64,000 nt of DNA from an uncultured Lachnospiraceae bacterium (GCA_934394565.1 CAKRQV010000002.1:16792-80791), one strand, 5' to 3'. Shown: positions 40,686 through 59,324, counted from the first letter of the stretch. Notes: generated by a model from the letters alone, not told the origin. Numbers and translations: made by a program.

Positions 40686-41777
40686 TTACTTAGTCTCTCT
40701 GTGATACAGCTTGTTATAATATTCCAGAGAATAATTATACAGCTCATCATGGGCTACGATCGACTGTTTCGGATTGCTCATATCCGTCATGATACACGGC
40801 ATACATCTGCCCTTGGCACCAAAGTGGTCTACAAAATCACGGATGATCTTGCGGATTTCTGTCTCATCGGCTTTCGGGTCGATATTTAGCCAGAAGGCGA
40901 AGGTCATCTGATCACCGTATTTTTCGTAGAGCAGATCTGGATCGTTGATGACGGCCTGCGGTGTCCACATATCGATGCCCATCTCGATCATTTCCGGTAC
41001 GTACTGGACATTCTTTCCACAGGAATGCAACTCAATAAATTTACCCTGATCCTTGACAAACTTCAGGAAACGGGAGGTGGCCGGCATGATCTGTTCTCTG
41101 AACATCTCATTGGAGAAGAAGCCGCTTCTCTGGGTACCCCAGTCATCATGATACAGCACACCGTCTACACGACCGTAGTTATCAAAAATCTTCTGACAGG
41201 ATTCAATCTTGTAATCTGCCATTTTCTGGAAGAAATCTTCCAGAAGCTCCGGTTCCTCATAAAAAGCCAGCAGTGTTTCATCAAATGGCATCATTTCATG
41301 CAGTCGTTCAAAGATGCCTTCTACGCATTCGTAAATATGGACTCTGTCCGGATCCAGCATTTTCTGGATTTTTTCGCCATCTGTCTTAAAATCAACAACA
41401 GAAAGATCCGGCCATTCTACTTCTTCCTTCCAGTTGGCAAAATCAGAAATCACACGTGTACCCGGTTTTGTGATCATGCCGCCTGCTGACTCGACCATTA
41501 CCCAGTAAACACCCCACCAGTCATAGCCGTCTACTTCCGGTACGGGATGCTCTTCCATCGCATCTGGCCAGATGATATTGCTCTCCGTCATGTAAGCCGG
41601 CATCCAATATGGCTTTTCACCTTTGACACAGCGGATGTAGTTGTCACGTACACTGTAGGGTCTGCCGGTGATCGGCTCTTTCGCTCTCTGGAAAATCCAC
41701 GGGAAGGTTCCCACACCCTGCCATTCTTTCGAATAATCACGGTTTGCTGCTGTCTGCATAAATTTACCAACACTCAT
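40686..41777 (-). CDS. UroD/MtaA-family (zinc-dependent, corrinoid-type) methyltransferase, paralog B
   Basis: It has URO-D-like TIM-barrel length and composition. The His-x-Cys zinc motif is ELHSCGK, with distal Cys residues (GRCMPC). The ATG at 41777 follows an AGGAGGAA ribosome binding site. Confidence 0.7.
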   Translation of the reverse strand: MSVGKFMQTAANRDYSKEWQGVGTFPWIFQRAKEPITGRPYSVRDNYIRCVKGEKPYWMPAYMTESNIIWPDAMEEHPVPEVDGYDWWGVYWVMVESAGGMITKPGTRVISDFANWKEEVEWPDLSVVDFKTDGEKIQKMLDPDRVHIYECVEGIFERLHEMMPFDETLLAFYEEPELLEDFFQKMADYKIESCQKIFDNYGRVDGVLYHDDWGTQRSGFFSNEMFREQIMPATSRFLKFVKDQGKFIELHSCGKNVQYVPEMIEMGIDMWTPQAVINDPDLLYEKYGDQMTFAFWLNIDPKADETEIRKIIRDFVDHFGAKGRCMPCIMTDMSNPKQSIVAHDELYNYSLEYYNKLYHRETK

Positions 41778-41897
41778 GTTTTGTTCCTCCTTTTTATGCT
41801 TTGTATCCATCCATTCTTGTTGCAGTCTGTTGTTCTTGCAGGGTACATGCTGATACATTCTCCCTGTTTTTAAATACAGGCAACTACAACTTTATTT

Positions 41898-42350
41898 TTA
41901 TATACACAGGGCTTCTCTGATCTCCGTAAACATCTGCTCCGCAAGTGCATACGCTGTCATCTCATCCAACAACAGGATAATGGCTGCAAATTTACCGCCT
42001 GCCTCACAGCCTGCACCCTTACGGATATCGGCATGATCCAGCGTCACGGAAAATACAGCGGTCTCCTGAAAATCCACCGAGGCCTTGATATGTCCGACGA
42101 TACCACCGGCATCCTGTACTCGCTTTGCCATCTGCTCCATGCCTTGGCTCAAAATCTGTGAGATTTTTTCACGATCGCCTTCGAAATAAAACTCTGCTGA
42201 TACCACAATGGCTTCATCCTGGGTTTTCACCGACAAGCGGACATCCTGTGGTTTAGTATCTTCCAGCGACAAAAAGCGGTCTTTTTTCTGAAAATATAAC
42301 TGTCCGCCTGACTTTTTTGTATCCACACGCATCTGTACAGCTCTTTTCAT
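41898..42350 (-). CDS. Hypothetical 150-aa protein with no family I recognise
   Basis: The ATG at 42350 lies 10 nt after AAAGGAG; the ORF-track start at 42359 is a GTG. I saw no TM segment and no DxHxxG B12-binding motif. It sits between the GTPase gene and methyltransferase B. Confidence 0.5.
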   Translation of the reverse strand: MKRAVQMRVDTKKSGGQLYFQKKDRFLSLEDTKPQDVRLSVKTQDEAIVVSAEFYFEGDREKISQILSQGMEQMAKRVQDAGGIVGHIKASVDFQETAVFSVTLDHADIRKGAGCEAGGKFAAIILLLDEMTAYALAEQMFTEIREALCI

Positions 42351-42410
42351 CCATGTCACGCTCCTTTTTACATCCTTCGGCCTTTTTTCAAAAGATACGC
42401 CTGTAAATCA

Positions 42411-43040
42411 TCACCGCATGTCCGGCTTATGCTGACTGTTATCCTCCCCCAGTACCAGCTTCCATACATTATCACTCTGTCCGGTCGTGGCACATGTGCG
42501 TACACAGCAAGTCTCTGGCTGTATTCGGTATATATCTGTCTCGCAGAGTTGGATCTCTTCTTCTGTAGCCAGATCTGTCTTATTGATCAGTGTTACATCT
42601 GCGCAGGAAATCTGCCCTGTCAGCAACGTCTCCATAGGCTTGCGGATCCGTTTCCAGCGCTGGGCATCCACCACAGTGCAAATCCGGCAGTCTTTATTAC
42701 AGGCTGCTTTGAGATTATCCCGGATCAGACCCGGATAGGCCAGTCCTGTGGTTTCCAGGATCATCCAGTCCGGTGCATATGTTTCTTCTATATAAGATAC
42801 CGCCCGGATCAGTTCGCCGCCAACGGTGCAGCAGGCACAGCCCGCAAACAGATTTTCCACCTGAAAGCCTCTGTTTTTCAGCAGGGCATCATCTACGCCT
42901 TTATCACCAACCTCATTTTCAAGGATGATGACCCTGGGTGCATCCCCCTTTGTTGCCTCTCTGGCAAGGAAACGGGCCAGACCCATCAGCAGGGAGGTCT
43001 TTCCGGATCCTAAAAATCCACTTAAGATTACTACCTGCAT
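42411..43040 (-). CDS. COG0523/G3E-family (CobW-like) metallochaperone GTPase, N-terminal domain only
   Basis: The P-loop is GFLGSGKTSL, the CxCC motif is GCACCT, and NKTD is present. The protein is only 209 aa and has no CobW_C domain. Confidence 0.8.
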   Translation of the reverse strand: MQVVILSGFLGSGKTSLLMGLARFLAREATKGDAPRVIILENEVGDKGVDDALLKNRGFQVENLFAGCACCTVGGELIRAVSYIEETYAPDWMILETTGLAYPGLIRDNLKAACNKDCRICTVVDAQRWKRIRKPMETLLTGQISCADVTLINKTDLATEEEIQLCETDIYRIQPETCCVRTCATTGQSDNVWKLVLGEDNSQHKPDMR

Positions 43041-43122
43041 GATGTTCGCCTCCTTTTATCTGTTGCTTTTGCAGGCACGCTGTCCATTGACAACGTGCCT
43101 TTATCCATTCCCTTTATGCTTC

Positions 43123-44154
43123 TTATTTGTAGAACTGATCGCCGTATTTGTACACTTCGTCCATCAGTACGGCATTCTTTCTGTTGACTTCCGGATCATC
43201 CACCGGACCGAGATACCCACCACACCAGCAGAAGCCGCCGCCTTTAGCATAAGTATCGATCGTATCACGTACAGACTGTCGGATCTCTTCATCCGTAACA
43301 TCTGGTGAAAGCAGATGGTCTCTGGCATCCCAGCCACCCATCAGTACGAGACTGTTTCCAAATTTGGCCTGTACGGCTTTCAGGTCGTTACAGGTCTGGG
43401 CCGGATCCCATGCATTGACACCGATACTTCTTAAATCTTCCATAAAGCCTTCGGCTTTACCACAATTATGCATAGTGATCGGGATACCTGCATCACGTCC
43501 GAATTTTGCCTGACGGTTATGGAACGGAAGCACCAGCTCACGGTACATTTTCGGAGAAATAAACGGTGCACCCCAGGCTGCCGTATCATCCATCATGGTC
43601 AGAACATCCGGCTGCACATACGGCCAAATCCGTCTCGTTACTTCTGTATAGAAATCGCACATATAATCAAACAGCGCATATACCTCTTCGGGCTCTTCAT
43701 ACATCGCACATAAGCCTTCGGTAAATCCCATGAAAGCCATCAGGTTCTGGAAATACCCCACATGCAGGTTCAGGGAAATTGCTGTTTCTTCTCTTCTGAC
43801 ACCCATTTTATAGAACATTTCCAGGTGATCTTTTGCCATCTTTTCCCAGTCAATACCATCCAGTGATGGTGCTTTGATCACATCACGCCAATGGCGGATA
43901 TCATCCAGAATGAATTCATCCGGCTTCGGCAGCAATGCATTTCCGGTCTCATAGGTCGGTACATATTCCACTCCCCAGACGTCTTTTCCGCCGCCTTTGA
44001 AGCGGAATTCACTTAAAAGCATCGGCTCAAGCATACAGGATGCGCATGGTCTCGTCTGACCCGGCATCGGGCCGAAGGTGTACACCGGTACCCATTCCGG
44101 CTGTTCTCCTCTAAGGGTGCGCAGATAATTTTCTTTTTCGGAAATCTTTGTCAT
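43123..44154 (-). CDS. UroD/MtaA-family (zinc-dependent, corrinoid-type) methyltransferase, paralog A
   Basis: The His-x-Cys motif is TMHNCGK, with a distal GGGFCWCGG. The ATG at 44154 follows an AAGGAGGA ribosome binding site. The longer ORF reaching 44385 was rejected. Confidence 0.7.
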   Translation of the reverse strand: MTKISEKENYLRTLRGEQPEWVPVYTFGPMPGQTRPCASCMLEPMLLSEFRFKGGGKDVWGVEYVPTYETGNALLPKPDEFILDDIRHWRDVIKAPSLDGIDWEKMAKDHLEMFYKMGVRREETAISLNLHVGYFQNLMAFMGFTEGLCAMYEEPEEVYALFDYMCDFYTEVTRRIWPYVQPDVLTMMDDTAAWGAPFISPKMYRELVLPFHNRQAKFGRDAGIPITMHNCGKAEGFMEDLRSIGVNAWDPAQTCNDLKAVQAKFGNSLVLMGGWDARDHLLSPDVTDEEIRQSVRDTIDTYAKGGGFCWCGGYLGPVDDPEVNRKNAVLMDEVYKYGDQFYK

Positions 44155-44488
44155 CTGTGTTATCCTCCTTTTTACAGATTTGTGGCAGCCACAGCTTCCT
44201 CCCTGTCGGCTGTCCTTTTCCTTTCCTTTTCTGATAAGTCTATTATATCGTTTCACGTTCCGGATACTATGTACGGAAACTACAAGAAACGTATCAGCAA
44301 AATATCCATTTTTTGTAGATTTGTGCTCTACTTTTTTGTTAAAATTTTGTATACTATATAGGTACACTAGATATAGTGTGTGCAAAAACTACAGAGTGGT
44401 CATGAGCTGCCATGCAGCCATCAAAACATACATAAAACTGTCCACCGTATGTTCTCTGTATATAAAGGGACATAAAGGAGTCTGCAAT

Positions 44489-45949
44489 ATGAAACTAAGT
44501 ATGTGGATGATCGCCAACCGACTGCATTCTTTAGATATGAAACTGGATATAAAGGAAGACGCACCTGTCATCTTAAACAGCGCACGAAGAGTCTATGCCA
44601 CTAACTGCGTGCATGTCTACAGCGAAGGCAACGATGTGATCTGTAACGGCGAGGGTGATTCGATCCGTTTTGAAAACACGGATCTGACACTTGGCTTTGA
44701 GATCGTTGCCAGCGTCTTTGATTATTTTCAGGACTGGATGGACCGGCTGATCCGGCTGTCCCGTGAGCATGATTATCAGGGAGTTGTGGATCTGGCCTAT
44801 GAAGTGTTTAAAAACCCGATCGTTCTGTTAGATGGTAATAACCGGGTACTCGGCATCACACGGCAGTATGATGCCGATGCACTGGATGATGAATGGGCCT
44901 ATCTGTCACAGTATGGCTATTCTTCTTTAAATGCCGTCCAGCAGATGCGCTATGATTATAACAATTTTGACTACTGGTATCATGGGCCGAAAAAATTCAG
45001 ATTCTCCGGCAGCAATCTGCTGGATTACGACGGTCTTACCTACTGTATGTACTGCAATGATTCAATCTGCGGACGCATCAATGTTCTTGCCAAAGACCGC
45101 CCTTTAAATGCCGGGGATTCCCAGCTGCTGGACCAGATCGCCATGATCCTGGAGCCGGTACTCGGTCAGACATATTACGAAAGTGTACTGAACCATACCA
45201 ATGTCTTCCATAATATCCTCTTTGGTCTGCCTTATGATAAACGGCAGCTGGACAAACAGCTGTCCTATCAGCAGTGGACGGCTGACAACGACTATTATCT
45301 GACTGTCATTGAAGTATTTGATATAGCCGGACGTCCTGCCACAGATGCCAATGTAGAACAGCTTTTACAGGTACTGGCCCGGCAGGCTTCCGGGTGTGCT
45401 GCAATGAAAAAAGATACCTGTATCCTGTTACTTGGCACTTCGAATCTGGTGCTCGATGTTTCCATGACACCGATCTTTAACACACTGACTGCCCGCAATC
45501 CGATCCGTATTGCCTTCAGTCTTCCGGTGCATGGCATTGAAAATGCAGGAACCCTATATAAACAGTGTTTATATGCTCTCCGAGAAGGCAAAAAGACACA
45601 TCTGGAAGGGAAATATTATGATTTCTTTGACTATGCCATAGACTATATCCTGGAATCCGGTTCCCTGCTGGCTTCTGTTCGTGCCTGCATGCCTGCGGTC
45701 GCTGATCTGTGGGAAAAGTATCAGCAAACCGGAGATGAACTGTTCCAGACATTAAAAACTTTTCTCGAAAACGAACGTTCTATCTCCAAAACCTCCGAAG
45801 CACTGTTTACCCACAGAAATACGGTACTCTACCGTATCCGAAAGATTCAGGGAATGCTGGATCACGATCTGAATGATCCTTATGTACGGGAATACTGTTT
45901 GCTGTCTATCAAAGTTCTGGAGTTGTACAATCGTAAAAATACTATATAA
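44489..45949 (+). CDS. PucR-family transcriptional regulator
   Basis: The C-terminal PucR HTH is SISKTSEALFTHRNTVLYRIRKIQGML. The ATG at 44489 follows an AAAGGAG ribosome binding site. The gene is divergent from the methyltransferase operon. Confidence 0.75.
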   Translation: MKLSMWMIANRLHSLDMKLDIKEDAPVILNSARRVYATNCVHVYSEGNDVICNGEGDSIRFENTDLTLGFEIVASVFDYFQDWMDRLIRLSREHDYQGVVDLAYEVFKNPIVLLDGNNRVLGITRQYDADALDDEWAYLSQYGYSSLNAVQQMRYDYNNFDYWYHGPKKFRFSGSNLLDYDGLTYCMYCNDSICGRINVLAKDRPLNAGDSQLLDQIAMILEPVLGQTYYESVLNHTNVFHNILFGLPYDKRQLDKQLSYQQWTADNDYYLTVIEVFDIAGRPATDANVEQLLQVLARQASGCAAMKKDTCILLLGTSNLVLDVSMTPIFNTLTARNPIRIAFSLPVHGIENAGTLYKQCLYALREGKKTHLEGKYYDFFDYAIDYILESGSLLASVRACMPAVADLWEKYQQTGDELFQTLKTFLENERSISKTSEALFTHRNTVLYRIRKIQGMLDHDLNDPYVREYCLLSIKVLELYNRKNTI

Positions 45950-46072: not shown

Positions 46073-47485
46073 TTAGACCGGATATGCCTTATTTTCAGCA
46101 TCTGCTACAGTAGCATCTACCTTTGTTTTCTGTGCATCTCTGTACTTGAAGTACTCTGTAGCTACCTGCGGGAACAGAGCGTAGGTCAGTACATCCTCTT
46201 CCTGCTCTGCATACGGAGCAACCTCTTCTTTCAGCTTATCCAGCTGCGGCGGAATCAGATCAGCAGGACGACAGGTGATCGGTTCTACATCGCCGATGCA
46301 TTTCTTCTGTACTTCTTTGTTGAACGGTTTTACAGTAGCGCCGTATTTACCGCTTAAGACATCCTTTGTCTGCTGCGGAACCATCTTATAACGCTCACCC
46401 TGGATAACGTTCATAACAGCCTGTGTACCAACGATCTGGGAAGACGGTGTTACCAGCGGGCACTCACCAAGATCCTCACGCACACGCGGAACCTCTTCGA
46501 GTACCTGATAGTACTTGTCTTCTGCGCCAAGATCCTTTAACTGGCTGGTCAGGTTGGACAGCATACCACCCGGTACCTGATACAGCAGAGTCTTGATGTT
46601 TACACCCAGGTTCTTCGGATTTAACAGACCGCTCTCCAGAGCCTCGTCACGGATCGGACGGAAGTAATCTGCGATCTCAGCCAGCAGATTCTGGTCAAAT
46701 CCCGTATCATACGGTGTGCCCTTGAAGGTCTCTACCATAACCTCTGTTGCCGGCTGGGAGGTACCCAGGGCAAACGGAGACATAGCGGTATCGATCACAT
46801 CAACACCAGCTTCAACAGCTTTCAGGTATGTCATGGAAGCTACACCGGAAGTATAGTGTGTATGCAGCTGGATCGGGATGCTGACAGTCTCTTTCAGAGC
46901 CTGTACCAGCTCCGTTGCCTTGTACGGCAGAAGCAGACCGGCCATATCCTTGATACAGATGGAGTTAGCACCCATATCTTCGATCTTCTTGGCCATCTCT
47001 GTCCAGTACTCCAGAGTATACGGCTCACCCAGTGTATAGGAAAGAGCCACCTGTGCATGTCCTTTTTCTTTATTAGCTGCTGTAACGGCTGTCTGCAGGT
47101 TGCGGATGTCGTTTAAGCAGTCAAAGATACGGATGATATCGATACCATTGGCGATGGATTTCTGTACAAAGTACTCTACAACATCGTCAGCGTACTGGCT
47201 GTAGCCCAGGATATTCTGGCCTCTGAACAGCATCTGCAGCTTGGTGTTCTTAAAGCCGTCACGGAACTTACGAAGTCTGTCCCACGGATCTTCCTTCAGG
47301 AAACGAAGGGATGCATCGAATGTAGCACCACCCCAGCACTCTACGGAATGATAGCCGACTTTATCCAGTTTATCAACGATCGGAAGCATCTGCTCTGTTG
47401 TCATACGGGTGGCGATCAGAGACTGATGTGCGTCACGCAGAATGGTTTCTGTAATTTTAATTGGCTTTTTAGCGATTTCTGCCAT
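46073..47485 (-). CDS. Oxaloacetate decarboxylase alpha / transcarboxylase 5S-type carboxyltransferase (no biotinyl domain)
   Basis: It has ITETILRDAHQSLIATRMTTEQM and HTHYTSG. The protein is 470 aa and ends before any MKM biotinylation motif. Confidence 0.85.
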   Translation of the reverse strand: MAEIAKKPIKITETILRDAHQSLIATRMTTEQMLPIVDKLDKVGYHSVECWGGATFDASLRFLKEDPWDRLRKFRDGFKNTKLQMLFRGQNILGYSQYADDVVEYFVQKSIANGIDIIRIFDCLNDIRNLQTAVTAANKEKGHAQVALSYTLGEPYTLEYWTEMAKKIEDMGANSICIKDMAGLLLPYKATELVQALKETVSIPIQLHTHYTSGVASMTYLKAVEAGVDVIDTAMSPFALGTSQPATEVMVETFKGTPYDTGFDQNLLAEIADYFRPIRDEALESGLLNPKNLGVNIKTLLYQVPGGMLSNLTSQLKDLGAEDKYYQVLEEVPRVREDLGECPLVTPSSQIVGTQAVMNVIQGERYKMVPQQTKDVLSGKYGATVKPFNKEVQKKCIGDVEPITCRPADLIPPQLDKLKEEVAPYAEQEEDVLTYALFPQVATEYFKYRDAQKTKVDATVADAENKAYPV

Positions 47486-47510
47486 GATTAAACCTCCATA
47501 TTATTTGAAA

Positions 47511-48668
47511 TTAAACACCGAAGATAGCCATGAATGTACCGGCTGCTACTGCAGTACCGATAACACCGGCAACGTTCGGACCCATTGCATGCATCAGAAG
47601 GAAGTTTGTCGGATCTGCCTCAGCACCGACCTTCTGAGATACACGAGCTGCCATAGGAACGGCAGAAACACCGGCGGAACCGATCAGCGGATTGATCTTG
47701 CCGCCTGTAGCCTTGCACATGATCTTACCAAACAGCACACCACCTGCAGTACCGATAGCGAATGCGATCAGACCCAGGATAACGATCTTGATTGTCTGCA
47801 TGTTCAGGAAAGCCTCGGCACTTGTGGTAGCACCAACGGAAGTTCCCAGCAGAATAACAACGATATACATCAGGGCATTGGAAGCTGTCTCCTGCAGCTG
47901 CTTAACCACACCACTCTCGCGGAACAGGTTACCAAGCATCAGCATACCAACCAGCGGAGCTGTGGTCGGAAGCAGCATACAAACAACGATGGTGATAACG
48001 ATCGGGAAAAGGATCTTCTCCAGTTTGGATACCGGACGAAGCTGCTCCATCTTGATCTTGCGCTCTTTTTCTGTTGTCAGAAGCTTCATGATCGGCGGCT
48101 GGATGATCGGTACCAGGGACATATACGAATATGCCGCCACGGCGATCGGTCCCATCAGCCCCGTCTGTCCCAGCTTACCGGCAAGGAAGATAGAGGTCGG
48201 TCCATCGGCACCACCGATAATGGAGATCGCTGCAGCTGCCTTTCCGCCGAATCCCATAAAGATGGCGAAGAAGTAAGCGGCATAGATACCCAGCTGAGCT
48301 GCTGCACCAAGCAGAAAGCTCTTCGGGTTTGCGATCAGCGGACCAAAGTCAGTCATCGCACCGACACCCATGAAAATCAGGGACGGCAGGATACTGTATT
48401 CATCCAGAATATAGAAATAATGCAATAAGCCGGCTGCATGCTCGATACCATTTGCATCCACGTATGCTTCAGCCATGATATCCGGATAGATATTAACTAA
48501 AAGCATACCGAAAGCGATCGGTACCAGAAGCAGAGGCTCAAATCCTTTTTTGATTGCCAGATACAGAAAGACACAGGCTACGGCGATCATGATGTAGTTG
48601 CCTACAGTCAGATTCATAAAGGCAGTCTGCGCTAACAGATTTGACAAAGTGTTAGTCACATAAGACAT
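47511..48668 (-). CDS. Na+-translocating decarboxylase beta subunit (OadB/GcdB/MmdB)
   Basis: It is polytopic, with motifs GADGPT and [15 protein letters not shown]. Confidence 0.9.
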
Positions 48669-48706
48669 TTTTGTACCTCCATAGTAGTTTCAAGCAAGTG
48701 TTTGAA

Positions 48707-49069
48707 TTAGTTCAGTGTAGCCAGTGTATCGCCGTTTTCTACGGTATCACCAACAGCTACATTGATGCTTGCTACGGTACCATCCTGCGGAGCAACAACC
48801 GGGATCTCCATCTTCATGGATTCCAGAACAACGATGCTGTCGCCGGCCTTTACGGCCTGTCCTACGGTTGCTTCTACCTTGAATACTTTGCCCGGTACGG
48901 AAGCGCCTACGGTTACGGAACCAGCGCCTGCTGCTGCCGGAGCTGCTGCTGCTTTCGGAGCTGCCTTCGGTGCTGCCTTCGGAGCTGCCACCGGTGCACC
49001 GGATGTCTGTCCTTCTTCAACGGTTACATCATATACATTGCCATTTACTGTGATTGTATAGGTTTTCAT
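48707..49069 (-). CDS. Biotin carboxyl carrier protein (1.3S/MmdC/GcdC-like)
   Basis: It has an Ala/Pro-rich linker and the biotinylation motif LESMKMEIP. Confidence 0.85.
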   Translation of the reverse strand: MKTYTITVNGNVYDVTVEEGQTSGAPVAAPKAAPKAAPKAAAAPAAAGAGSVTVGASVPGKVFKVEATVGQAVKAGDSIVVLESMKMEIPVVAPQDGTVASINVAVGDTVENGDTLATLN

Positions 49070-49087
49070 TCTTAAATCCTCCTGTGA

Positions 49088-49825: not shown

Positions 49826-49839
49826 CTGCTTCACCTCGC

Positions 49840-53152: not shown

Positions 53153-54253
53153 TTAAATCTTTCCCTCTTTTTTTGCATAAGCCAGTATTTCCCGCAAGCC
53201 TTCTGCATATTCTCCGAGAGACTCTATATTCAAAGTATATATCACCTTATTGCACTTGTCTATCCATTTTTTGGCCCGTAAAACAGCCTCCTTACTTATC
53301 GGCTCAAACGGTGCTGTACTGATCGTTTCTTCTGCAAGTGCCATTGCTGAAGGATAATCCAGATCATTTTCCCACAATATCCCTGTCACAAAAGGAATAT
53401 TGTCTCTTTGCAGTCTTCGATAGATGGGTGTAGCGCTGCCATTGCCAGCGATCACAAACACCTTTGGTGTCCCCTGTACCCGCGCAAGCTCCAGATTTCC
53501 TGTTCTTTCTTCATATGTACCGGTTGTCATCTGATACAGCCTGGGAATATATCCTGCTGTAAAAATCTCTTCCGGAGTACCAAAGCGATCAATATGATCT
53601 CCTTTTACACACGCAATCTTATCAGAGATCCTGCCTGCCAGATCAAGCTCATGCAAAGACATGATCACAGACAGATTTCTTTTTCGTGACATGTTCTGTA
53701 TGATAGAGAGAAACTCCAGCTTGTAACGGATATCCAGAAAGGATGTAGGTTCATCCAGAACAATGATATCCGGCTGCTGGCAAAGCGCCCTGGCCAGCAT
53801 TACTCTTTGCTTTTGTCCATCGCTTGTTTTTGAAAAATCACGATCTGCCAGCGTATGTATTCCGACAAGCTCCATGGATTCCTCTACGATACTCTTGTCA
53901 CTCTCTGTCAGGACGCCGAATTTTCCGGTATACGGATAACGCCCGGTAGCCACAACCTCACGACACGTCATCATTTCCGGATGTATCCTTTCTGTCAATA
54001 CAACCGACAGATGTTTTGAAAGCTCTTGCCCTTCATACGTATCCATCGACTGACCATCGAGCACAGCCACTCCTCCCAATGGCTTTAGCTGCCGGATAAT
54101 ACTTCGGAGAATAGTTGTCTTTCCCGCACCGTTAGGGCCGATAAGCGTCAGGATCTCGCCTCTTTTTATCTGAAGACAGATATTCTGGATCAACGGTTTT
54201 CCATGATACCCCACAGTGAATCCTTCTGTATAAAAATAAAATTCGTCTTTCAT
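53153..54253 (-). CDS. Iron/cobalamin-type ABC transporter ATP-binding protein (BtuD/FepC-like) with a ~110-aa C-terminal extension
   Basis: Motifs are [18 protein letters not shown] and [12 protein letters not shown]. An additional C-terminal domain (...[39 protein letters not shown]...) belongs to no family I recognise. Confidence 0.85.
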
Positions 54254-54257
54254 AGGC

Positions 54258-55271
54258 TTATGCTTCCTTTTCTTTTCTGCGATGCACCATGATATATATA
54301 ACAACCGGAGCACCAAATACAGCGGTCACTGTACTGATGGATAGCTCCGTTGGTGAAAAAAGGGTTCGTGCCAAAAGATCACAAAAAAGACAAAATACCG
54401 AACCGCCCAGAAAGCAGGCAGGAATCATCAGAATCGGTTTCGCCGTTTTAAACAGATTTTTAACCAGATGCGGCACTGCAATACCCACAAAAGAGACCGG
54501 CCCGGCAAATGCTGTCACACAGGCAGACAAAATACTTGACAAAAGCACCAAAAGCACTCTGAAGCGCTGTACATTCAATCCCATGTTTCTTGCATAGGCT
54601 TCTCCCATCTGATAGGCGCTCAACGGCTTTGACATCAAAAACACCCCAACCGACGTTACCAGAATCACGATCGCCATAACAGATACATTCTGCCATGTAA
54701 TCCCGGAAAAGCTTCCCTTTGACCAGTTATGCAGATTTACAATATCCGCATCATCCGCAAAAGTCACCACAAAATCTGTAATTGCCGAACAGATATAGCC
54801 GATCATGACACCACTTACGATCAGCATAGCCATCTGATCCATCACCCTTGACATCAGAATCACAAAGCCCATGCAAAGCATGGCACCTGCAAAAGCCGCC
54901 AGGATCATAACCCATGAGCTCAGTGTAAGGGCATTTCCCAGTGCAGCTACCATGACAAGCGCTACGACAAGCTTTGCCCCTGAAGAAATACCCAGCGTAA
55001 ACGGGCCCGCAATCGGATTATGAAAAAATGTCTGTAAAAGATATCCTGACAAAGCCAGTCCACCACCAAGGATTGCTGCCGCAAGTGCTCTGGGATATCT
55101 GATCTGCATCACAATGTCCGTATATGTTTCATCCTGTCCGGCACCAAGTAAAATGGCCGGGATATCCTTAAATGGCACATTGACACTGCCAATGCAGATA
55201 TTTAACAGGATCAGGAACACCAGAAGTATGCAAAGTAAAGTATAGGCCGCAAAATATCTGTGTTTTTTCAT
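54258..55271 (-). CDS. FecCD-family ABC permease (BtuC-like)
   Basis: It is polytopic, with RYPRALAAAILGGGLALSGYLLQ. Confidence 0.9.
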   Translation of the reverse strand: MKKHRYFAAYTLLCILLVFLILLNICIGSVNVPFKDIPAILLGAGQDETYTDIVMQIRYPRALAAAILGGGLALSGYLLQTFFHNPIAGPFTLGISSGAKLVVALVMVAALGNALTLSSWVMILAAFAGAMLCMGFVILMSRVMDQMAMLIVSGVMIGYICSAITDFVVTFADDADIVNLHNWSKGSFSGITWQNVSVMAIVILVTSVGVFLMSKPLSAYQMGEAYARNMGLNVQRFRVLLVLLSSILSACVTAFAGPVSFVGIAVPHLVKNLFKTAKPILMIPACFLGGSVFCLFCDLLARTLFSPTELSISTVTAVFGAPVVIYIMVHRRKEKEA

Positions 55272-55274
55272 GTT

Positions 55275-56417
55275 TTACTCCAGTCTGTATAAATACACCA
55301 GATCCGCATCATCGTTTTCCAGCATACGGTGGATATCACCGGTAATCGTACCCAGCGACATCGTGGACTGGTAGAGGTTTTTTGTTGTACAGTACACATG
55401 GCCTTCCTGCACGGCTTTGCATTTCTGCAAAAGCGGGCTTTTCGCCAAAAGGTCCTCCAGCGTGTCCAGTTCTCCGTCTATCGTACTGTTATAGATCATA
55501 TAATCCGCATCTTTTGCTTTTGCATAGAATTCTTCCATCTGCATGGAGATCGTAGACGTTGCTTCTGCATCTTTACCCAGATCCTCAAAGATATACTTTC
55601 CGCCCGCATCTTCGATCATTTTTGGCAGATAGTCCGACGATTTTCGTACATTTACTTCTCCATTGCTTGTTACATAGAAAAAGGCCACTGTCTTGCCTGT
55701 TTTATCCGTATTTCCCACTTTTGCAAAGGCTTCTTCTTCTCTTTCAAAGGCTTTTTCTGCTTCTTTCTCATGATCCGTCAGAAGTCCATACAGCTTCACC
55801 CATTCCGTTCTTCCAAGCGGTTCCGGCTCATAGCTGGATCTGTCCACCAAGACGGCGATATTGAAGCGTTCCAGCTGTTCCTGCACCTCCGGGCTGTGAC
55901 CGATCATTGTGTTTTCTATTGCCAGGCTGCAGTTTTCTGCACGAATCATTTCATAATCCGGCGCAGAATACTTTCCGGCATACAAAATATCCCCTCTTTG
56001 CATGGCTTCTCTGGCCTCCGGTATGTACCAATTGTCTGCCTGAAGCCCGCTGAAGCGTATCGTATCAAGAGCATCCAGCGAAACAAACATATCCATAACC
56101 GCGGAAGCTACCAGGTACATATTTTTGAGAGGCTTTTGCAGCACTGTAATATCCTCTGAAAGATCTTTTGGCGCCTTTTTTCCCTCTGGAACCACCAGAT
56201 ACCGGCTGCCATCTGCAATTGTTATAAGAGCATACCCGTCTTCGTAATAATCCACAGCAAACTCTTTTGCATAGGATGTTTCCAGACTGCTTGTATATGT
56301 CAGGCTGCTACTTACCGCAGTATCCCTGTTTTCAATGGTTTTGTTTTCTTTGGCACCACAGGCAGTCAAAAGCCCCACCAATAAAACTGCCAGTAAGACC
56401 ATTCTCTTTTTCTTCAT
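55275..56417 (-). CDS. Periplasmic-binding-protein type 2 substrate-binding lipoprotein (BtuF-like)
   Basis: It has a lipobox (LLTACGA) and a Peripla_BP_2-like layout. It sits in the B12-riboswitch operon. Confidence 0.8.
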   Translation of the reverse strand: MKKKRMVLLAVLLVGLLTACGAKENKTIENRDTAVSSSLTYTSSLETSYAKEFAVDYYEDGYALITIADGSRYLVVPEGKKAPKDLSEDITVLQKPLKNMYLVASAVMDMFVSLDALDTIRFSGLQADNWYIPEAREAMQRGDILYAGKYSAPDYEMIRAENCSLAIENTMIGHSPEVQEQLERFNIAVLVDRSSYEPEPLGRTEWVKLYGLLTDHEKEAEKAFEREEEAFAKVGNTDKTGKTVAFFYVTSNGEVNVRKSSDYLPKMIEDAGGKYIFEDLGKDAEATSTISMQMEEFYAKAKDADYMIYNSTIDGELDTLEDLLAKSPLLQKCKAVQEGHVYCTTKNLYQSTMSLGTITGDIHRMLENDDADLVYLYRLE

Positions 56418-56863
56418 ACTTTCTTTTTCCTTCTATTTTTTCCTATCACAACTGCTGCAGTCACTACAGCACACACAAGGAAAATCCCTCCAAACAATAT
56501 TCCTGTATTCCTGTCCGACGCTTTTGCAGGTTTTACAGAGGCAGAGGCAAATGTAAGTGTGTACTCGATCTCATGCGGAATACTCATCGCTGTAGTGTCT
56601 GCTGTAACTGGTATAGCCTCATCAAATGCCGAAACCGGTACCTCGAACACAGAATTCCCCTCTGTATTTACAGGCAGCAGTTTTTCATCCTTCACCACCA
56701 TATAGTCATAGTGAGAGCTGCTCCATTCAATCCGCGCGATTTTTTCTCCCGACTGTACTGTAAGCTCTGCCGGTGATGTGATACCTGCTCTTCCAGATCC
56801 TCCCTCAAGCTGTACATCCACTGTATATAAGCCATCTTCAAGCTGCAGATTTTCACTTTCCAT
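56414..56863 (-). CDS. Hypothetical protein with a C-terminal TM anchor; paralog of the 56978-57553 domain
   Basis: The ATG at 56863 follows a GAGGAGAAGG ribosome binding site. It has LEDGLYTVDV...ELTVQSGEKIARIEWSS...FEVPVSAFDE. The C-terminal helix is followed by KNRRKKKV. There is no N-terminal signal peptide. Confidence 0.5.
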   Translation of the reverse strand: MESENLQLEDGLYTVDVQLEGGSGRAGITSPAELTVQSGEKIARIEWSSSHYDYMVVKDEKLLPVNTEGNSVFEVPVSAFDEAIPVTADTTAMSIPHEIEYTLTFASASVKPAKASDRNTGILFGGIFLVCAVVTAAVVIGKNRRKKKV

Positions 56864-56977
56864 AGTCCTTCTCCTCTTCGTCCGGATAAGTTTCCGGAGC
56901 GATGTATCCTCTTTTAGTAGTAAAGGCTGCTGCAAAACATGTCCTCATGCTGCAGCAGCCTTTGTAGATTCTGTATT

Positions 56978-57553
56978 TTAGTCTTCCAACGGCACAGGAT
57001 TCGACACAGAAACCTTATGATCATACCAGGTTCCCTTTGTTCCTATAAGTGCCAGATCAAACTCTTCATCCAATGCCGGAACCGGCACATCAAATCCATA
57101 CACTTCTTCTGTTGTGCCATCCTCGTATGTCACTGTATCAGTCGTCGGCTCTAGTAGCTGTGCACCATCCTTTTTTGCATCCTTGGCAAGACCGGCATAC
57201 AGATTCACGATTTTTTTGGAAGACAGTGAGATATGTATCGTCATCTGTCCGTCCTTTACCGTCAGTCTGCCTACACCGTCACATGCCTCATTTACATGGA
57301 ACATGCTGCTGTCTGTATCAAACGCTGCAGAATATACACCATCCTCCAGTGCAGCTGCTGTATTATCCGTCGGTGCACTCTCATCAACAGGAGCTATGTC
57401 ACTTGTTACGCCGGAGGACTCTGCCTCTGTTGTCTGAGAACCTGTCGCCTTAGATGCTTCTGCCTGTGTTTTGTCCTGCTGTCCGCCACAACCGGCTAGC
57501 ACGGTCAGGCCCAAGGTTGCTGCAGTCATCAGTATAGCTATCCTTTTTTTCAT
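56978..57553 (-). CDS. Lipoprotein of unknown function; paralogous domain to 56414-56863
   Basis: It has a lipobox (LAGCGG) and a low-complexity linker, followed by LEDGVYSAAFD...RLTVKDGQMTIHISLSS...FDVPVPALDEE. Confidence 0.55.
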   Translation of the reverse strand: MKKRIAILMTAATLGLTVLAGCGGQQDKTQAEASKATGSQTTEAESSGVTSDIAPVDESAPTDNTAAALEDGVYSAAFDTDSSMFHVNEACDGVGRLTVKDGQMTIHISLSSKKIVNLYAGLAKDAKKDGAQLLEPTTDTVTYEDGTTEEVYGFDVPVPALDEEFDLALIGTKGTWYDHKVSVSNPVPLED

Positions 57554-57576
57554 AAAATACAAGTCCGTCCTTTACT

Positions 57577-58866
57577 TTATTTCATTGCCTCAGCTGTGTG
57601 AGCAACATAGATATCCTGAATAGCCTTGATCTGTCCAAGACCTTCGATCTGCACATCTACATTTTCAAACTTACCGGAAGCTTTGAACTGGCTTAACCAG
57701 GAATCATCATCATCGCCAGCCATATCGTTGTTTGCATGATCACCGGCAACAACCATCAGCGGACGAAGGATAACCTTTGTATAACCGGCTTCGGCTACTT
57801 TTTCGATAACAGCTTCACAAGCTGTGTCTTCCGGCTCGCCCTCTACTGTACCGATAAATACATTATCATAGCCAAGCTCCTGCATCTGTGTCTGCATCTG
57901 GCTGTATGTAATCTTTGCTGTATGAGATGTACCATGTCCCATAAATACAAAAGCTGTCTTGTCTTCCTTAACAGCATCCAGAGAATCATAACCGGCTGTC
58001 TTTACAGCTTCTGCTGTGATAGCCTCTGCTGCGGCTTTCTTGTCGTCGTTGATTGCGGAAGCATCAGCTCCAACCTCGCCAAGGAGCGGCTCAGCTACTT
58101 TTACAGACTCAAATTTGTCTTTATAAGAATCCACAGCCTCCATCAGCTCATCATACTCCGCACCATGCATCAGATGTGTCGGCTGTACAACCAGATTTTT
58201 TACACCATTTGCTACTGCACGATCAAGTGCCTGATCCATATTATCGATATGCTCATCGTCTCTTGCCTGCACATGATTGATGATGATCTGTGCTGTAAAT
58301 GCACGTCTGACAGACCAGTCCGGATAAGCTGCCTGCAGCGCATCCTCAACACCCTTGATATCCTCTGCACGGCTATCGTTAAAGGACGTACCAAAGCTTA
58401 CGACCAGGAGTTCATTTTCACCGATATCATCCCCGTTGCGCGGATCATCCTTGGAAGCATCGCCGGTATCTCTGCCAAAATAATCCGGATCTGCCTCTTC
58501 TCCTTCAACCATCTCTTTCTGCGCATCTGTCAGTGCATCCCATGCTTCTTTTGCTTCCTTACACTGTGCATCTGTGTTCTCGGTTCTTTCCTGTACATAG
58601 ATCGCATCGATCAGCTCTGCCACATGATCAGCTGCGGCTTTGTCAGCATCTTCCTCAGTTGCAGATGCTTCAGCAGCTGCAGATGCTGTTTCTGTGGCTG
58701 CCGTACTTGACTCCGCTGCAGCAGAAGCAGTCTCTGACTGTGCTGCACTCTCAACCGGTGTCGAAGATACTGCGGTGCTTGAAGAAGCATTGCCTCCACA
58801 GCCAACGATCATGGATGCTGTCAAAGCACCTACACACAATACTGTTGCAAATTTTCTCTTCATCAT
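57577..58866 (-). CDS. Lipoprotein homolog of sirohydrochlorin cobaltochelatase CbiK (predicted extracytoplasmic)
   Basis: It has a lipobox (MIVGCGG) and a Ser/Ala/Thr/Glu-rich linker. The CbiK core follows: LLVVSFGTS, VVQPTHLMHGAEYDEL, FVFMGHGTSH, LRPLMVVAGDHANNDMAG. The ATGATG start at 58866 follows a GGGAGGA ribosome binding site. Confidence 0.75.
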   Translation of the reverse strand: MMKRKFATVLCVGALTASMIVGCGGNASSSTAVSSTPVESAAQSETASAAAESSTAATETASAAAEASATEEDADKAAADHVAELIDAIYVQERTENTDAQCKEAKEAWDALTDAQKEMVEGEEADPDYFGRDTGDASKDDPRNGDDIGENELLVVSFGTSFNDSRAEDIKGVEDALQAAYPDWSVRRAFTAQIIINHVQARDDEHIDNMDQALDRAVANGVKNLVVQPTHLMHGAEYDELMEAVDSYKDKFESVKVAEPLLGEVGADASAINDDKKAAAEAITAEAVKTAGYDSLDAVKEDKTAFVFMGHGTSHTAKITYSQMQTQMQELGYDNVFIGTVEGEPEDTACEAVIEKVAEAGYTKVILRPLMVVAGDHANNDMAGDDDDSWLSQFKASGKFENVDVQIEGLGQIKAIQDIYVAHTAEAMK

Positions 58867-58943
58867 TTTCTTATCCTCCCGAAAAATGATTAATGTATTA
58901 TGCATACATAAACCACACATAGACGGGAGTCAATGAAATGTGA

Positions 58944-59043
58944 CAACTATGAGAAACACTCTGTGCGATTTTCGCAAGATATCGCGGCAGTCGCCAAGGT
59001 CTCACGCAAGCACGGACTTTGGCTCGTTGCTCGCATAAAAAAA
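58944..59043. repeat. Dispersed ~100-nt repeat, copy 2 (copy 1 is at 30450-30552)
   Basis: It has the same core, ATCGCGGCAGTCGCCAAGGTCTC...GCACGGACT.TGGCTCGTTGC. It lies between the riboswitch terminator and the first gene of the operon. Confidence 0.8.
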
Positions 59044-59067
59044 TCCAACGCAAAAAAGCGCTGGATT
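59035..59067 (-). terminator. Intrinsic terminator (expression platform of the cobalamin riboswitch)
   Basis: On the minus strand, AATCCAGCGC-TTTTTT-GCGTTGGATT is followed by T7. Confidence 0.65.
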
Positions 59068-59094
59068 GAGTGTATCTGTCCTCATTCGGTACAA

Positions 59095-59300
59095 TCAATC
59101 CTCGTGATCTGGAATATCGCATTCCCCGTACCACAGTCTGGCAGGTCTCCTGGCTCACAGCTACGCATACAACCGCCTTCCCGATAGGATCAGTGACATA
59201 TATGGCCGTATACTTCTGCTTACAGTGACGAGATCGCGCAGGATTCTCACCTGCTTCCCTATTCTCCGCCTTATACAGGCGGCACCAGCTGTTTCTTATG
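59095..59300 (-). promoter_or_regulatory. Cobalamin (B12) riboswitch
   Basis: The minus strand contains GGTGCC...AATAGGGAAGCAGGTGAGAATCCTGCGC...CACTGTAA and the B12 box GCCAGGAGACCTGCC. Confidence 0.85.
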
Positions 59301-59324
59301 CAGTTTTATGTATCCATTAGCTGC

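What the first reader, a model, noticed from the sequence alone, without database searches (positions are those of the whole stretch)
40686..45949. PucR-linked cluster: two UroD/MtaA-type zinc methyltransferases flank a COG0523 GTPase and an orphan protein, with no corrinoid protein
Both methyltransferase paralogs keep the His-x-Cys zinc motif (MHNCGK and LHSCGK) plus distal cysteines. This matches MtaA-type and O-demethylase MT-I-type enzymes, which act on corrinoid proteins. The operon contains no B12-binding (DxHxxG) corrinoid protein, no pterin-binding methyltransferase, and no reductive activase.

Instead, the two methyltransferase genes bracket a G3E-family metallochaperone GTPase (CxCC motif GCACCT) and an unrecognisable 150-aa protein. 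A divergent PucR-type regulator suggests induction by substrate. The arrangement suggests a dedicated metal-insertion step (Zn, or possibly Co) for these methyltransferases. Alternatively it could be a non-canonical methyl-transfer system.
Basis: partly seen in the sequence, partly recalled or inferred. Interest (0 to 1): 0.65.

Follow-up and report, generated by a model that had tools for sequence, protein, structure and literature searches.

The report
Demethylase genes with split metal chaperone
A gut Lachnospiraceae operon joins two methyl-ether-type methyltransferases to a two-gene metal-delivery GTPase system; this module is conserved across phyla but unstudied, probably loads a metal (most likely zinc) into one of the enzymes, and its vitamin-B12 carrier protein is probably just encoded elsewhere.

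Summary
On the minus strand lie MT-A (URO-D family, 343 aa, MHNCGK), a 209-aa CobW-type GTPase with only the N-terminal domain (GCACCT), a 150-aa protein with no Pfam or NCBIfam family, and MT-B (363 aa, LHSCGK). A PucR regulator is divergent. No corrinoid protein, pterin methyltransferase or activase occurs anywhere in the 64-kb window.

The order MT-A, short GTPase, orphan recurs across distant taxa: Blautia producta, Sporobacter termitidis, Treponema primitia, and many termite and rumen Oscillospiraceae. In T. primitia it sits beside a complete corrinoid O-demethylase set.

The orphan belongs to an unmodelled family with a GG(I/V)(I/V)GHIKA motif. 36 of 42 members carry extreme His/Cys-rich tails, and one is fused to the GTPase. 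The pair therefore looks like a split COG0523-type metallochaperone whose likeliest client is MT-A.

A "non-canonical, corrinoid-free" system is not supported. Isolated MT-I genes are common, and the window carries a B12-riboswitch-controlled uptake operon.

COG0523 linkage to corrinoid methyltransferases was noted in 2009. I found no description of the split form, its partner domain or its specific client. I rate it a new variant of a known kind, of moderate interest.

The parts
43123..44154 (-). MT-A. A UroD-superfamily methyltransferase of the 'veratrol:corrinoid protein methyltransferase'-named clade (MT-I type), with H229-x-C231 and C309/C311. It is the first gene of the operon and the likely client of the chaperone pair.
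   Evidence: Pfam URO-D 2.5e-18. The best NCBIfam hits are MtaA/CmuA/MtbA models, all below cut-off. There are 1019 homologs, many named veratrol--corrinoid protein methyltransferase at 56-62% identity. H229, C231 and D189/D190 are invariant. The AF2 model has pLDDT 93, and Foldseek finds UroD and MtaA at TM 0.58-0.67.
42411..43040 (-). Short CobW-type G3E GTPase ('cobWs'). It has a COG0523 N-terminal domain with a GCxCC metal motif and no CobW_C domain.
   Evidence: Pfam cobW 3e-36. It matches E. coli YjiA residues 6-167 at E=1.7e-14. All 38 family members in related loci keep the P-loop, ENExG, GCxCC, E(T/S)TG and NKxD motifs. Within the species there are zero amino-acid changes.
41898..42350 (-). 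Orphan 'GHIK-domain' protein, the partner of the short GTPase. The core is residues 37-150, with invariant G86-H87-x-K89, S101 and T103. This clade lacks the usual His-rich tail.
   Evidence: No Pfam or NCBIfam model matches any of 50 members. The family has 168 representatives at 50% identity. The AF2 core has pLDDT >95 with a bb-a-bb-a topology, and there is no PDB fold match at E<=1e-3. 36 of 42 relatives have His/Cys-rich tails. P0172 is a natural GTPase::orphan fusion. The gene sits directly after cobWs in 35 of 39 genome loci.
40686..41777 (-). MT-B. A second UroD-superfamily methyltransferase from a different orthologous group, about 28% identical to MT-A, with H251-x-C253 and C325/C328. 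It is probably an MT-I of different substrate specificity.
   Evidence: Pfam URO-D 2e-10. There are 671 homologs, 60-87% identical, in Lachnospiraceae and Eubacteriaceae including Acetitomaculum ruminis and Blautia liquoris. Elsewhere it stands alone or with MFS and PucR, without the chaperone pair.
44155..44488 (.). Divergent intergenic region between MT-A and PucR. It presumably holds both promoters and an operator. It contains an imperfect palindrome, ACTATATAGGTACACTAGATATAGT.
   Evidence: Sequence read. Consensus promoter and terminator scans gave no more hits than shuffled sequence, so this part is inferred only.
44489..45949 (+). PucR-family transcription regulator, divergent from the operon.
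   Evidence: Pfam HTH_30 1.2e-17 and GGDEF_2 2e-5. PucR genes also flank MT-I genes or the pair in L014, L015, L017-L019, L021, L029, L042 and L060.
53153..59301 (-). Context, not part of the operon. A cobalamin riboswitch (59123-59301) is followed by a CbiK-domain protein, two small ORFs and a Peripla_BP_2/FecCD/ABC_tran transporter. This is a B12-regulated corrinoid uptake operon and shows that the organism uses corrinoids.
   Evidence: Rfam RF00174 at 105 bits, E=3e-25. Pfam CbiK 4e-74, Peripla_BP_2 2e-31, FecCD 3e-82, ABC_tran 2e-30.

Best explanation
This is a PucR-controlled operon of an uncultured gut Lachnospiraceae bacterium.

The methyltransferases. MT-A and MT-B are UroD-superfamily methyltransferases that carry a metal site and are probably substrate-specific. 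Most likely they are the MT-I components (methyl donor to Co(I) of a corrinoid protein) of corrinoid-dependent demethylase systems for methoxylated aromatics. The shared corrinoid protein, the methyl-corrinoid:tetrahydrofolate methyltransferase and the ATP-dependent activase would be encoded elsewhere in the genome, as is usual for MT-I genes.

The chaperone pair. The two middle genes form one functional unit, a split COG0523-type metallochaperone:
- The 209-aa GTPase carries the GCxCC metal site.
- The GHIK-domain protein takes the place of the His-rich linker plus C-terminal domain of canonical COG0523 proteins. In most species it provides a large His/Cys-rich metal reservoir.
- GTP binding and hydrolysis would drive delivery of a metal, most likely Zn(II), into the His-x-Cys...Cys site of MT-A.

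Shown here: domain identities, motif conservation, the conserved gene order across phyla, the natural fusion, the His-rich tails, and co-location with complete corrinoid systems in some species.

Inferred: that the two proteins form a complex, that MT-A is the client, that the metal is zinc, that the substrate class is aryl methyl ethers, and that a corrinoid protein exists elsewhere in this genome.
For: 1. Identity of the parts.

2. The MT-A clade is named veratrol:corrinoid protein methyltransferase by several sources. It is present in known O-demethylating anaerobes: Sporobacter termitidis, Treponema primitia ZAS-2 and Blautia producta (the Sporobacter physiology is cited in PMC8359953).

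3. Association seen from the orphan side, in 39 species-level genome loci. The short GTPase lies directly upstream in 35, with 2 more cut by contig ends. MT-A-type lies directly upstream of that in 25, with 2 more cut by contig ends.

4. Association seen from the MT-A side. All 5 sampled homologs at 60-73% identity have the cobW-short gene and a small ORF without a Pfam family next door or within 4 kb.

5. The pair is a unit. Their genes overlap by 4 bp in L011 and L013. P0172 fuses both domains through a His-rich linker.

6. Metallochaperone signature. 36 of 42 orphan homologs have tails with 6-39 His per 70 residues, often with CxC motifs. Other members have HxHxH tails, and one carries a LarC-like N-terminus. 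GCxCC is kept in 38 of 38 GTPases.

7. Corrinoid context. In T. primitia L014 the pair lies 6 kb from Pterin_bind, B12-binding, DUF2284 and RACo genes. RACo and DUF2284 lie directly upstream of MT-A in L033 and L034. FTHFS, MT-II and MTHFR lie beside the pair in L042. The window has a cobalamin riboswitch and uptake operon.

8. Zinc is the established metal of UroD-superfamily corrinoid methyltransferases (PMC10418091; Haas 2009 on MtaA/MtaB). COG0523 subfamily 13 was already noted to co-localise with corrinoid-dependent methyltransferases (PMC2770081). A cobW gene was also noted in an Intestinibacter O-demethylase cluster (PMC8398226).

9. The orphan is a real gene under purifying selection: within-species dN/dS is 0.35, and the family spans Bacillota, Spirochaetota and Actinomycetota.
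Against: - No corrinoid protein, MT-II or activase was found in the 64 kb, and the rest of this genome could not be searched.
- No characterised MT-I (OdmB, VdmB, MtvB, MtoB) could be compared directly. The 'veratrol' names are transferred annotations.
- MT-A and MT-B score far below the curated MtaA/CmuA cut-offs, and no solved structure is close.
- PMC10418091 states that O-demethylases of this superfamily usually replace one or both Cys ligands by carboxylates. Both proteins here keep His-x-Cys plus a distal Cys, which looks more like the S-methyltransferases.
- The distal Cys311 is not invariant: it is N or S in 3 of 18 members.
- 8 of 39 loci have the pair without an adjacent MT-A, so the client may not be exclusive.
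- The window's clade has lost the His-rich tail. Its GTPase and orphan have diverged far faster than the enzymes: 69% and 48% identity against 97% versus the sister species.
- The metal is not identified. His-rich tails and a LarC-like fusion would also fit Ni or Co.
- The orphan shows no detectable similarity to CobW_C.
Confidence: 0.6

Rival explanations
1. MT-A and/or MT-B are sulfur (or selenium) methyltransferases rather than aryl-ether MT-I enzymes. They would be either methylcobamide:thiol methyltransferases (MT-II-like, as MtaA/MtbA/MtsA) or methylthiol:corrinoid enzymes. The chaperone pair would still metallate them.
For: Both proteins keep His-x-Cys plus a distal Cys. PMC10418091 describes this as the S-methyltransferase signature and says O-demethylases usually carry carboxylates instead. 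The only NCBIfam and PDB similarities are to MtaA, MtbA and CmuA. Sporobacter-type organisms make methanethiol and dimethyl sulfide from methoxy groups (PMC8359953).
Against: The hits to MtaA models are very weak (22-45 bits against cut-offs of 235-600). The distal Cys is not invariant in the MT-A family. The clade is enriched in termite, rumen and gut lignin-demethylating taxa, and sources name it veratrol MT-I. In T. primitia a separate pterin-binding MT-II is present beside it.
Confidence: 0.15
2. The GTPase and GHIK protein serve the corrinoid side rather than the methyltransferase. They would supply cobalt (CobW-like) or assist cofactor loading or repair of the corrinoid protein (MeaB-like).
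For: CobW, the founding COG0523 member, is a cobalt chaperone, and G3E MeaB works on a B12 enzyme (Haas 2009). Sources annotate such genes as cobW. RACo lies adjacent in L014, L033 and L034. The window organism imports corrinoids.
Against: In the 39 species-level genome loci, none has a corrinoid protein within 7-10 kb of the pair, whereas 25 have MT-A immediately upstream in fixed order. MeaB-type proteins lack CxCC, and here GCxCC is invariant. An organism that imports corrinoids under riboswitch control has less need of a cobalt insertase.
Confidence: 0.12
3. This is the first reader's alternative: a non-canonical methyl-transfer system that needs no corrinoid protein. For example, MT-A would use free cobalamin, or a chaperone-inserted metal centre, as the methyl acceptor.
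For: The triad stands far from any corrinoid protein in this window and in nearly all relatives. In Blautia producta it is an isolated three-gene unit between housekeeping genes. Heterologous expression of the Blautia lignan methyltransferase Glm reportedly failed (review PMC13515148), although Glm was not shown to be an MT-A ortholog.
Against: Scattered MT-I genes that share one carrier are normal in demethylating anaerobes. MT-B homologs show the same isolation without any chaperone. Where neighbours are informative they are canonical: B12-binding protein, Pterin_bind, RACo, FTHFS and MTHFR. No extra domain in MT-A could hold a cofactor; it is a single 343-aa TIM barrel.
Confidence: 0.05
4. 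The pair is a general low-zinc-response COG0523 system (like ZigA, YeiR or ZNG1) that happens to sit beside methyltransferase genes and has no specific client in the operon.
For: Many COG0523 proteins act in zinc homeostasis (Haas 2009). 8 of 39 loci have the pair among unrelated genes.
Against: The fixed order MT-A, GTPase, orphan persists with short gaps or overlaps from Lachnospiraceae to Oscillospiraceae and other Bacillota (and within 4 kb in a spirochaete), while the surrounding genes differ completely. The regulator here is PucR, not Zur. All 5 MT-A homologs sampled carry the pair.
Confidence: 0.05

Closest known systems
MT-I components of anaerobic corrinoid-dependent O-demethylases (OdmB and VdmB of Acetobacterium dehalogenans; MtvB, MtoB)
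   Same: UroD-superfamily TIM barrel of about 340-360 aa. Sources name the MT-A clade veratrol:corrinoid protein methyltransferase. It occurs in O-demethylating acetogens and termite-gut bacteria. In T. primitia it lies beside the corrinoid protein, MT-II and activase.
   Different: No direct comparison with the characterised proteins was possible. His-x-Cys plus a distal Cys is kept, whereas O-demethylases are said to use carboxylates. A dedicated GTPase and partner gene follow MT-A; I found this mentioned only in passing ('cobW' in an Intestinibacter cluster) and never with a role assigned.
MtaA/MtbA/MtsA methylcobamide:coenzyme M methyltransferases (PDB 4AY7)
   Same: Same superfamily. H-x-C at the end of a barrel strand with a Cys about 77 residues later, matching the MtaA zinc site as I recall it (my own knowledge). 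They give the best NCBIfam hits, and Foldseek TM is about 0.65.
   Different: Only 13% identity. Scores are 22-45 bits against cut-offs of 235-600. The host is not a methanogen and no coenzyme M context is present.
COG0523 G3E metallochaperone GTPases (CobW, YjiA, YeiR, ZigA, ZNG1), in particular 'subfamily 13' of Haas et al. 2009, which co-localises with corrinoid-dependent methyltransferases
   Same: P-loop, switch motifs, GCxCC and NKxD are present. There is homology to the YjiA N-domain (E=1.7e-14). His-rich stretches are associated. The genes are linked to corrinoid methyltransferase genes.
   Different: The protein stops after the GTPase domain (about 200 aa against 320-400). The His-rich region and a C-terminal-like domain are on a separate gene, and its fold and sequence are not detectably CobW_C. 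Membership of subfamily 13 was not tested phylogenetically.
Two-protein nickel chaperone sets (HypB with HypA/SlyD; UreG with UreE)
   Same: A G3E GTPase works with a separate small metal-binding partner that often carries a His-rich tail. Haas 2009 argues that His stretches mark the metallochaperone role.
   Different: The GHIK domain shows no sequence or fold similarity to HypA, UreE or LarC. The neighbouring enzyme is a methyltransferase, not a hydrogenase or urease.

Membership tests
UroD superfamily (Pfam PF01208 URO-D) | Sequence match above the Pfam gathering score, and a UroD-type TIM barrel | tested here: met
   MT-A scores 66.7 bits and MT-B 40.6 bits against a cut-off of 23.9. The MT-A AF2 model has pLDDT 93. 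Foldseek hits UroD and MtaA at E 1e-12 to 1e-10 and TM 0.58-0.67.
Bona fide uroporphyrinogen decarboxylase (HemE) | Match to curated HemE models, and a haem-pathway context | tested here: not met
   No HemE model appears among the NCBIfam hits at E<=0.01; only MtaA, CmuA and MtbA models do. The neighbours are a GTPase, a PucR regulator and decarboxylase genes, not hem genes. The fold alone does not discriminate.
MtaA/CmuA subfamily (TIGR01463, NF040654, NF041608) | Score at or above the curated cut-off (235-600 bits) | tested here: not met
   MT-A scores 35-45 bits and MT-B 17-23 bits. They are related to this subfamily but are not members.
Corrinoid-dependent O-demethylase MT-I | Close relationship to characterised MT-I (OdmB, VdmB, MtvB, MtoB) | not tested
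The only evidence is transferred names on homologs at 56-62% identity.
Corrinoid-dependent O-demethylase MT-I | Genomic partners: corrinoid protein, methyl-corrinoid:THF MT-II, ATP-dependent activase | tested here: inconclusive
   These are absent from the 64-kb window. They are present beside the homologous module in T. primitia and partly in L033, L034 and L042. The rest of this genome was not searchable.
Corrinoid-dependent O-demethylase MT-I | Methyl transfer from an aryl methyl ether to Co(I) | not testable with these tools
   This needs an enzyme assay.
Zinc-dependent UroD-superfamily methyltransferases | Metal ligands: His-x-Cys plus a third Cys or carboxylate | tested here: met
   H229/C231 (MT-A) and H251/C253 (MT-B) are invariant across both families. 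Distal C309/C311 and C325/C328 are present, but C311 is N or S in 3 of 18 MT-A relatives. Metal content was not measured.
COG0523 / G3E GTPases | GTPase motifs (P-loop, switch ENExG, ExTG, NKxD) plus the GCxCC metal motif | tested here: met
   All motifs are present in the window protein and in 38 of 38 relatives. Pfam cobW 3e-36. YjiA 1NIJ E=1.7e-14.
COG0523 / G3E GTPases | C-terminal CobW_C domain on the same polypeptide | tested here: not met
   The protein ends at residue 209, just after the GTPase domain. The next gene is not detectably CobW_C: 0 of 50 members hit PF07683, hhalign probability against YjiA/YeiR is below 1%, and there is no significant fold hit to any PDB entry, YjiA (1NIJ) included.
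COG0523 subfamily 13 (Haas et al. 2009) | Co-localisation with corrinoid-dependent methyltransferase genes; phylogenetic placement in that subfamily | tested here: inconclusive
   Co-localisation is met. The phylogenetic placement was not tested, because no subfamily 13 sequences were at hand.
PucR/CdaR-type regulators | C-terminal PucR HTH (PF13556) with a GGDEF-like middle domain | tested here: met
   HTH_30 63.9 bits, GGDEF_2 25.3 bits.

The most novel reading that the evidence does not exclude
The triad of MT-A, short GTPase and GHIK protein is a self-contained demethylase module that does not use a corrinoid carrier protein. The chaperone pair would install a metal other than zinc (Co or Ni) in the His/Cys site of MT-A, or MT-A would work with free cobamide. 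This would explain why the triad sits alone, away from any B12-binding protein, in this window and in nearly all of the about 40 species examined.

A milder and much likelier form (about 0.5) is that the pair is a previously undescribed two-component class of COG0523 chaperone with an operon-encoded, specific client.
Probability: 0.06. Interest if true: 0.85.

Novelty: new variant of a known kind. Interest (0 to 1): 0.5.

Why it matters
Few COG0523 metallochaperones have a known client. Here a conserved operon points to one specific client, a clade of methyl-ether methyltransferases. It also points to an unmodelled partner domain (GHIK) that replaces the usual C-terminal half. That gives a clean system for asking how G3E GTPases choose metal and target.

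In practice, gut O-demethylation activates dietary lignans and alters oral drugs. Attempts to express such methyltransferases heterologously have failed (Glm, as reported in PMC13515148). A required maturation pair could be one missing ingredient.

The finding does not reveal a new kind of methyl-transfer chemistry.

Tried and rejected
- PDB sequence searches with MT-A, MT-B and an MT-A profile gave nothing usable; MtaA appeared only at E=0.94.
- Foldseek on the MT-A model could not separate UroD from MtaA, since both give TM about 0.6-0.67.
- Orphan: a PDB profile search hit only His-tags. Foldseek gave no hit at E<=1e-3, only generic two-layer a/b folds.
- Orphan, continued: Pfam and NCBIfam scans of 50 members gave only noise and His-rich 'Zip' matches.
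- Orphan as a detached CobW_C domain: rejected at the sequence level and unresolved at the fold level.
- Orphan as related to LarC: rejected, since only the His-rich stretches align.
- The word-indexed homolog search for the orphan found only relatives at 53% identity or more. The exhaustive HMMER search was needed.
- The genome scan did not return the window's own species. Its organism is known only as a 'Lachnospiraceae bacterium' MAG.
- Promoter and terminator scans gave no more than chance.
- I could not establish whether the Blautia producta triad (L021) is the published glm locus. The supplement and the journal version are not held.
- One look-up of a window protein failed.

Full report
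**What is there**

The region 40686-45949 holds four same-strand genes on the minus strand and one divergent regulator. Gene calls for the identical locus in ten human-gut metagenome contigs (L001-L010, Hadza and other cohorts) fix the products at 343, 209, 150, 363 and 486 aa.

- Pfam assigns URO-D to the first and fourth genes: MT-A at 2.5e-18 and MT-B at 2e-10.
- It assigns the cobW nucleotide-binding domain to the second (3e-36) and nothing to the third.
- It assigns PucR HTH plus GGDEF_2 to the regulator.
- NCBIfam gives only weak, sub-threshold matches of the two methyltransferases to MtaA/CmuA/MtbA models and none to HemE. The GTPase matches CobW, YjiA, ZigA and a 195-aa 'CobW-related selenoprotein' model, all below cut-off.
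These are MHNCGK (H229, C231) with C309/C311 in MT-A, LHSCGK (H251, C253) with C325/C328 in MT-B, and GCACCT in the GTPase, together with the P-loop, ENEVG, ETTG and NKTD.

The organism is an uncultured Lachnospiraceae bacterium.

**No corrinoid components in the window, but corrinoid use is evident**

phmmer searches with the Treponema primitia corrinoid protein, pterin-binding MT-II, DUF2284 and RACo found nothing in any six-frame ORF of the 64 kb. Pfam annotation of nearly all genes shows none of PF02310, PF02607, PF00809 or RACo.

However, a cobalamin riboswitch (59123-59301, 105 bits) precedes an operon. That operon holds a CbiK-domain protein, two small ORFs and a Peripla_BP_2/FecCD/ABC_tran transporter. 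The organism therefore senses and imports corrinoids.

**What the methyltransferases are**

- MT-A has more than 1000 homologs. Those at 56-62% identity include proteins that NCBI records name 'veratrol--corrinoid protein methyltransferase'. They also include proteins of Sporobacter termitidis and Treponema primitia ZAS-2.
- MT-B belongs to a different, very conserved group, 60-87% identical across Lachnospiraceae and Eubacteriaceae. This group includes Acetitomaculum ruminis and Blautia liquoris.
- The two are about 28% identical to each other. They share invariant D189/D190, H229 and C231.
- No solved structure is close.
- A confident AF2 model of MT-A (pLDDT 93) is a UroD-superfamily barrel, equally distant from UroD and MtaA at TM 0.58-0.67 and 13-16% identity.
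- They are therefore members of the UroD superfamily. They are not HemE and not members of the MtaA/CmuA subfamily proper. They are best read as MT-I-type substrate:corrinoid methyltransferases.
- One caveat applies. PMC10418091 states that O-demethylases of this superfamily usually replace the Cys ligands by carboxylates, whereas His-Cys-Cys marks S-methyltransferases. I keep a sulfur-substrate rival for this reason.

**The middle pair is a conserved unit**

- The word-indexed search found only close relatives of the orphan.
- An exhaustive HMMER search of 1.8 billion representatives found 168 family representatives, mostly 130-170 aa.
- The alignment shows a core of about 110 residues, with invariant G-H-x-K in GG(I/V)(I/V)GHIKA and S-x-T.
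- P0172 fuses a cobW domain to the orphan domain through a His-rich linker. P0152, P0239 and P0242 carry long HxHxH tails. P0195 carries a LarC-like N-terminus.
- In 42 family members read from loci, 36 have 6-39 histidines in the 70 residues before the core, often with CxC motifs.
- The AF2 model of the core is confident (pLDDT >95, bb-a-bb-a topology) but has no significant PDB neighbour.
- None of 50 members hits any Pfam or NCBIfam family, CobW_C included.
- hhalign against the C-terminal domains of E. coli YjiA and YeiR gives a probability below 1%. LarC aligns only through its His stretch.
- The GTPase is homologous to the N-domain of YjiA (E=1.7e-14) and ends where that domain ends.
- All 38 relatives keep GCxCC and the GTPase motifs.

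**Gene-neighbourhood survey**

A scan of one genome per species with the orphan profile returned 39 loci. They include Blautia producta DSM 2950, B. hominis, B. celeris, Murimonas intestini, Sporobacter, many termite, rumen and gut Oscillospiraceae MAGs, and Coriobacteriales, Actinomycetota and Peptococcaceae MAGs. I annotated them with my own HMMs.

| Feature among the 39 loci | Count |
|---|---|
| Short GTPase directly upstream of the orphan | 35 (2 more cut by contig ends) |
| MT-A-type gene directly upstream of the GTPase | 25 (2 more cut by contig ends) |
| MT-B downstream of the orphan | 3 (the three closest relatives) |
| Corrinoid protein in the locus | 0 |
| RACo in the locus | 2 |
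| MT-II in the locus | 1 |

From the MT-A side, all 5 sampled homologs carry the pair next door or within 4 kb.

In T. primitia the locus also holds Pterin_bind, a B12-binding protein, DUF2284, RACo, three further URO-D genes and two PucR genes. In L042 the pair follows PucR and lies beside FTHFS, MT-II and MTHFR. In B. producta the unit PucR, MT-A, GTPase, orphan is isolated between rsmF and glgC-type genes. MT-B homologs elsewhere have MFS and PucR neighbours but no chaperone.

**Interpretation**

The conserved order, the frequent 4-bp overlaps, the natural fusion and the His-rich tails make the GTPase and GHIK protein a two-part metallochaperone. It corresponds positionally to a COG0523 protein split after the GTPase domain.

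Its tightest partner is the MT-A clade, not the corrinoid protein and not MT-B. Zinc is the established metal of this enzyme superfamily. The most economical mechanism is therefore GTP-dependent delivery of Zn(II) to the His-x-Cys...Cys site of MT-A. The rest of the demethylase (carrier, MT-II, activase) would be encoded elsewhere.

The client, the metal and the substrate class are inferences.

**Oddities**

- Against the syntenic sister species L017 (flanks about 90% nucleotide identity), MT-A and MT-B are 97% identical with dS about 0.7.
- In the same comparison, PucR, the GTPase and the orphan are 80%, 69% and 48% identical, with dS about 1.4 or saturated.
- Within the species the GTPase has no amino-acid change, while the orphan has dN/dS 0.35.
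- The window's clade has lost the His-rich tail.
- Eight loci have the pair without MT-A.

These points are unexplained. They limit confidence that the client is exclusive.

**Comparison with what is known**

Haas et al. 2009 (PMC2770081) already recorded that COG0523 'subfamily 13' co-localises with corrinoid-dependent methyltransferase genes: mtaABC and ramM in Methanosarcina, and a MeTr homolog in Desulfitobacterium. They also noted that about 40% of COG0523 proteins carry His stretches. A 2021 survey mentions a cobW gene in an Intestinibacter O-demethylase cluster (PMC8398226).

I found no description of four things:
- the truncated GTPase form;
- the GHIK-domain partner;
- the specific coupling to one MT-I clade;
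- any functional test.

I therefore rate this a new variant of a known kind. It is not a new methyl-transfer system.

Noticed in passing
window 53153-59301 (-): A cobalamin riboswitch (59123-59301, 105 bits) lies upstream of a 447-aa protein with a CbiK chelatase domain and a 170-residue N-terminal extension. Two ORFs with no Pfam family and a Peripla_BP_2/FecCD/ABC_tran transporter follow. A CbiK-like protein inside a B12-regulated uptake operon is unusual and might bind or remodel corrinoids.
   Followed up: partly
window 1113-3186 (-): larC (Ni_insertion, E=1.6e-127) and an AIRC-domain, larB-like gene lie side by side. This suggests synthesis of the nickel-pincer nucleotide cofactor. LarC has its own His-rich stretch.
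   Followed up: partly
window 40686-45949 compared with L017 6500-11600: Divergence inside the operon is mosaic. The enzymes are 97% identical to the sister species, but PucR is 80%, the GTPase 69% and the orphan 48%, with roughly doubled or saturated dS. This points to patchwise allelic replacement or very fast evolution of the non-enzyme genes.
   Followed up: partly
L060 1-3892: The natural fusion of the cobW domain and the GHIK domain (P0172) sits after a divergent PucR gene and an MFS transporter. Its CxCC motif is degenerate (DGTALS).
   Followed up: partly
L011 1-13300: A gut MAG carries seven URO-D-family genes and three MFS transporters around one MT-A, GTPase, orphan, MT-B core. This suggests a demethylase island with many substrate specificities.
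   Followed up: no
L013, L020, L045, L052, L059 (downstream of the orphan): An Amidohydro_2 gene follows the triad in about ten Oscillospiraceae loci. This family includes metal-dependent aromatic-acid decarboxylases. It may be a further step on the demethylated aromatic, or merely conserved synteny.
   Followed up: partly
window 46073-51276 (-): A complete membrane-bound biotin decarboxylase gene set lies immediately beside the PucR gene. It comprises a carboxyltransferase, an OAD-gamma fusion, a biotin carrier, OAD beta and a PYC_OADA alpha subunit, and is conserved in the sister species.
   Followed up: no
window about 44352-44376: An imperfect palindrome, ACTATATAGGTACACTAGATATAGT, lies in the MT-A/PucR intergenic region. 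It is a candidate operator.
   Followed up: no
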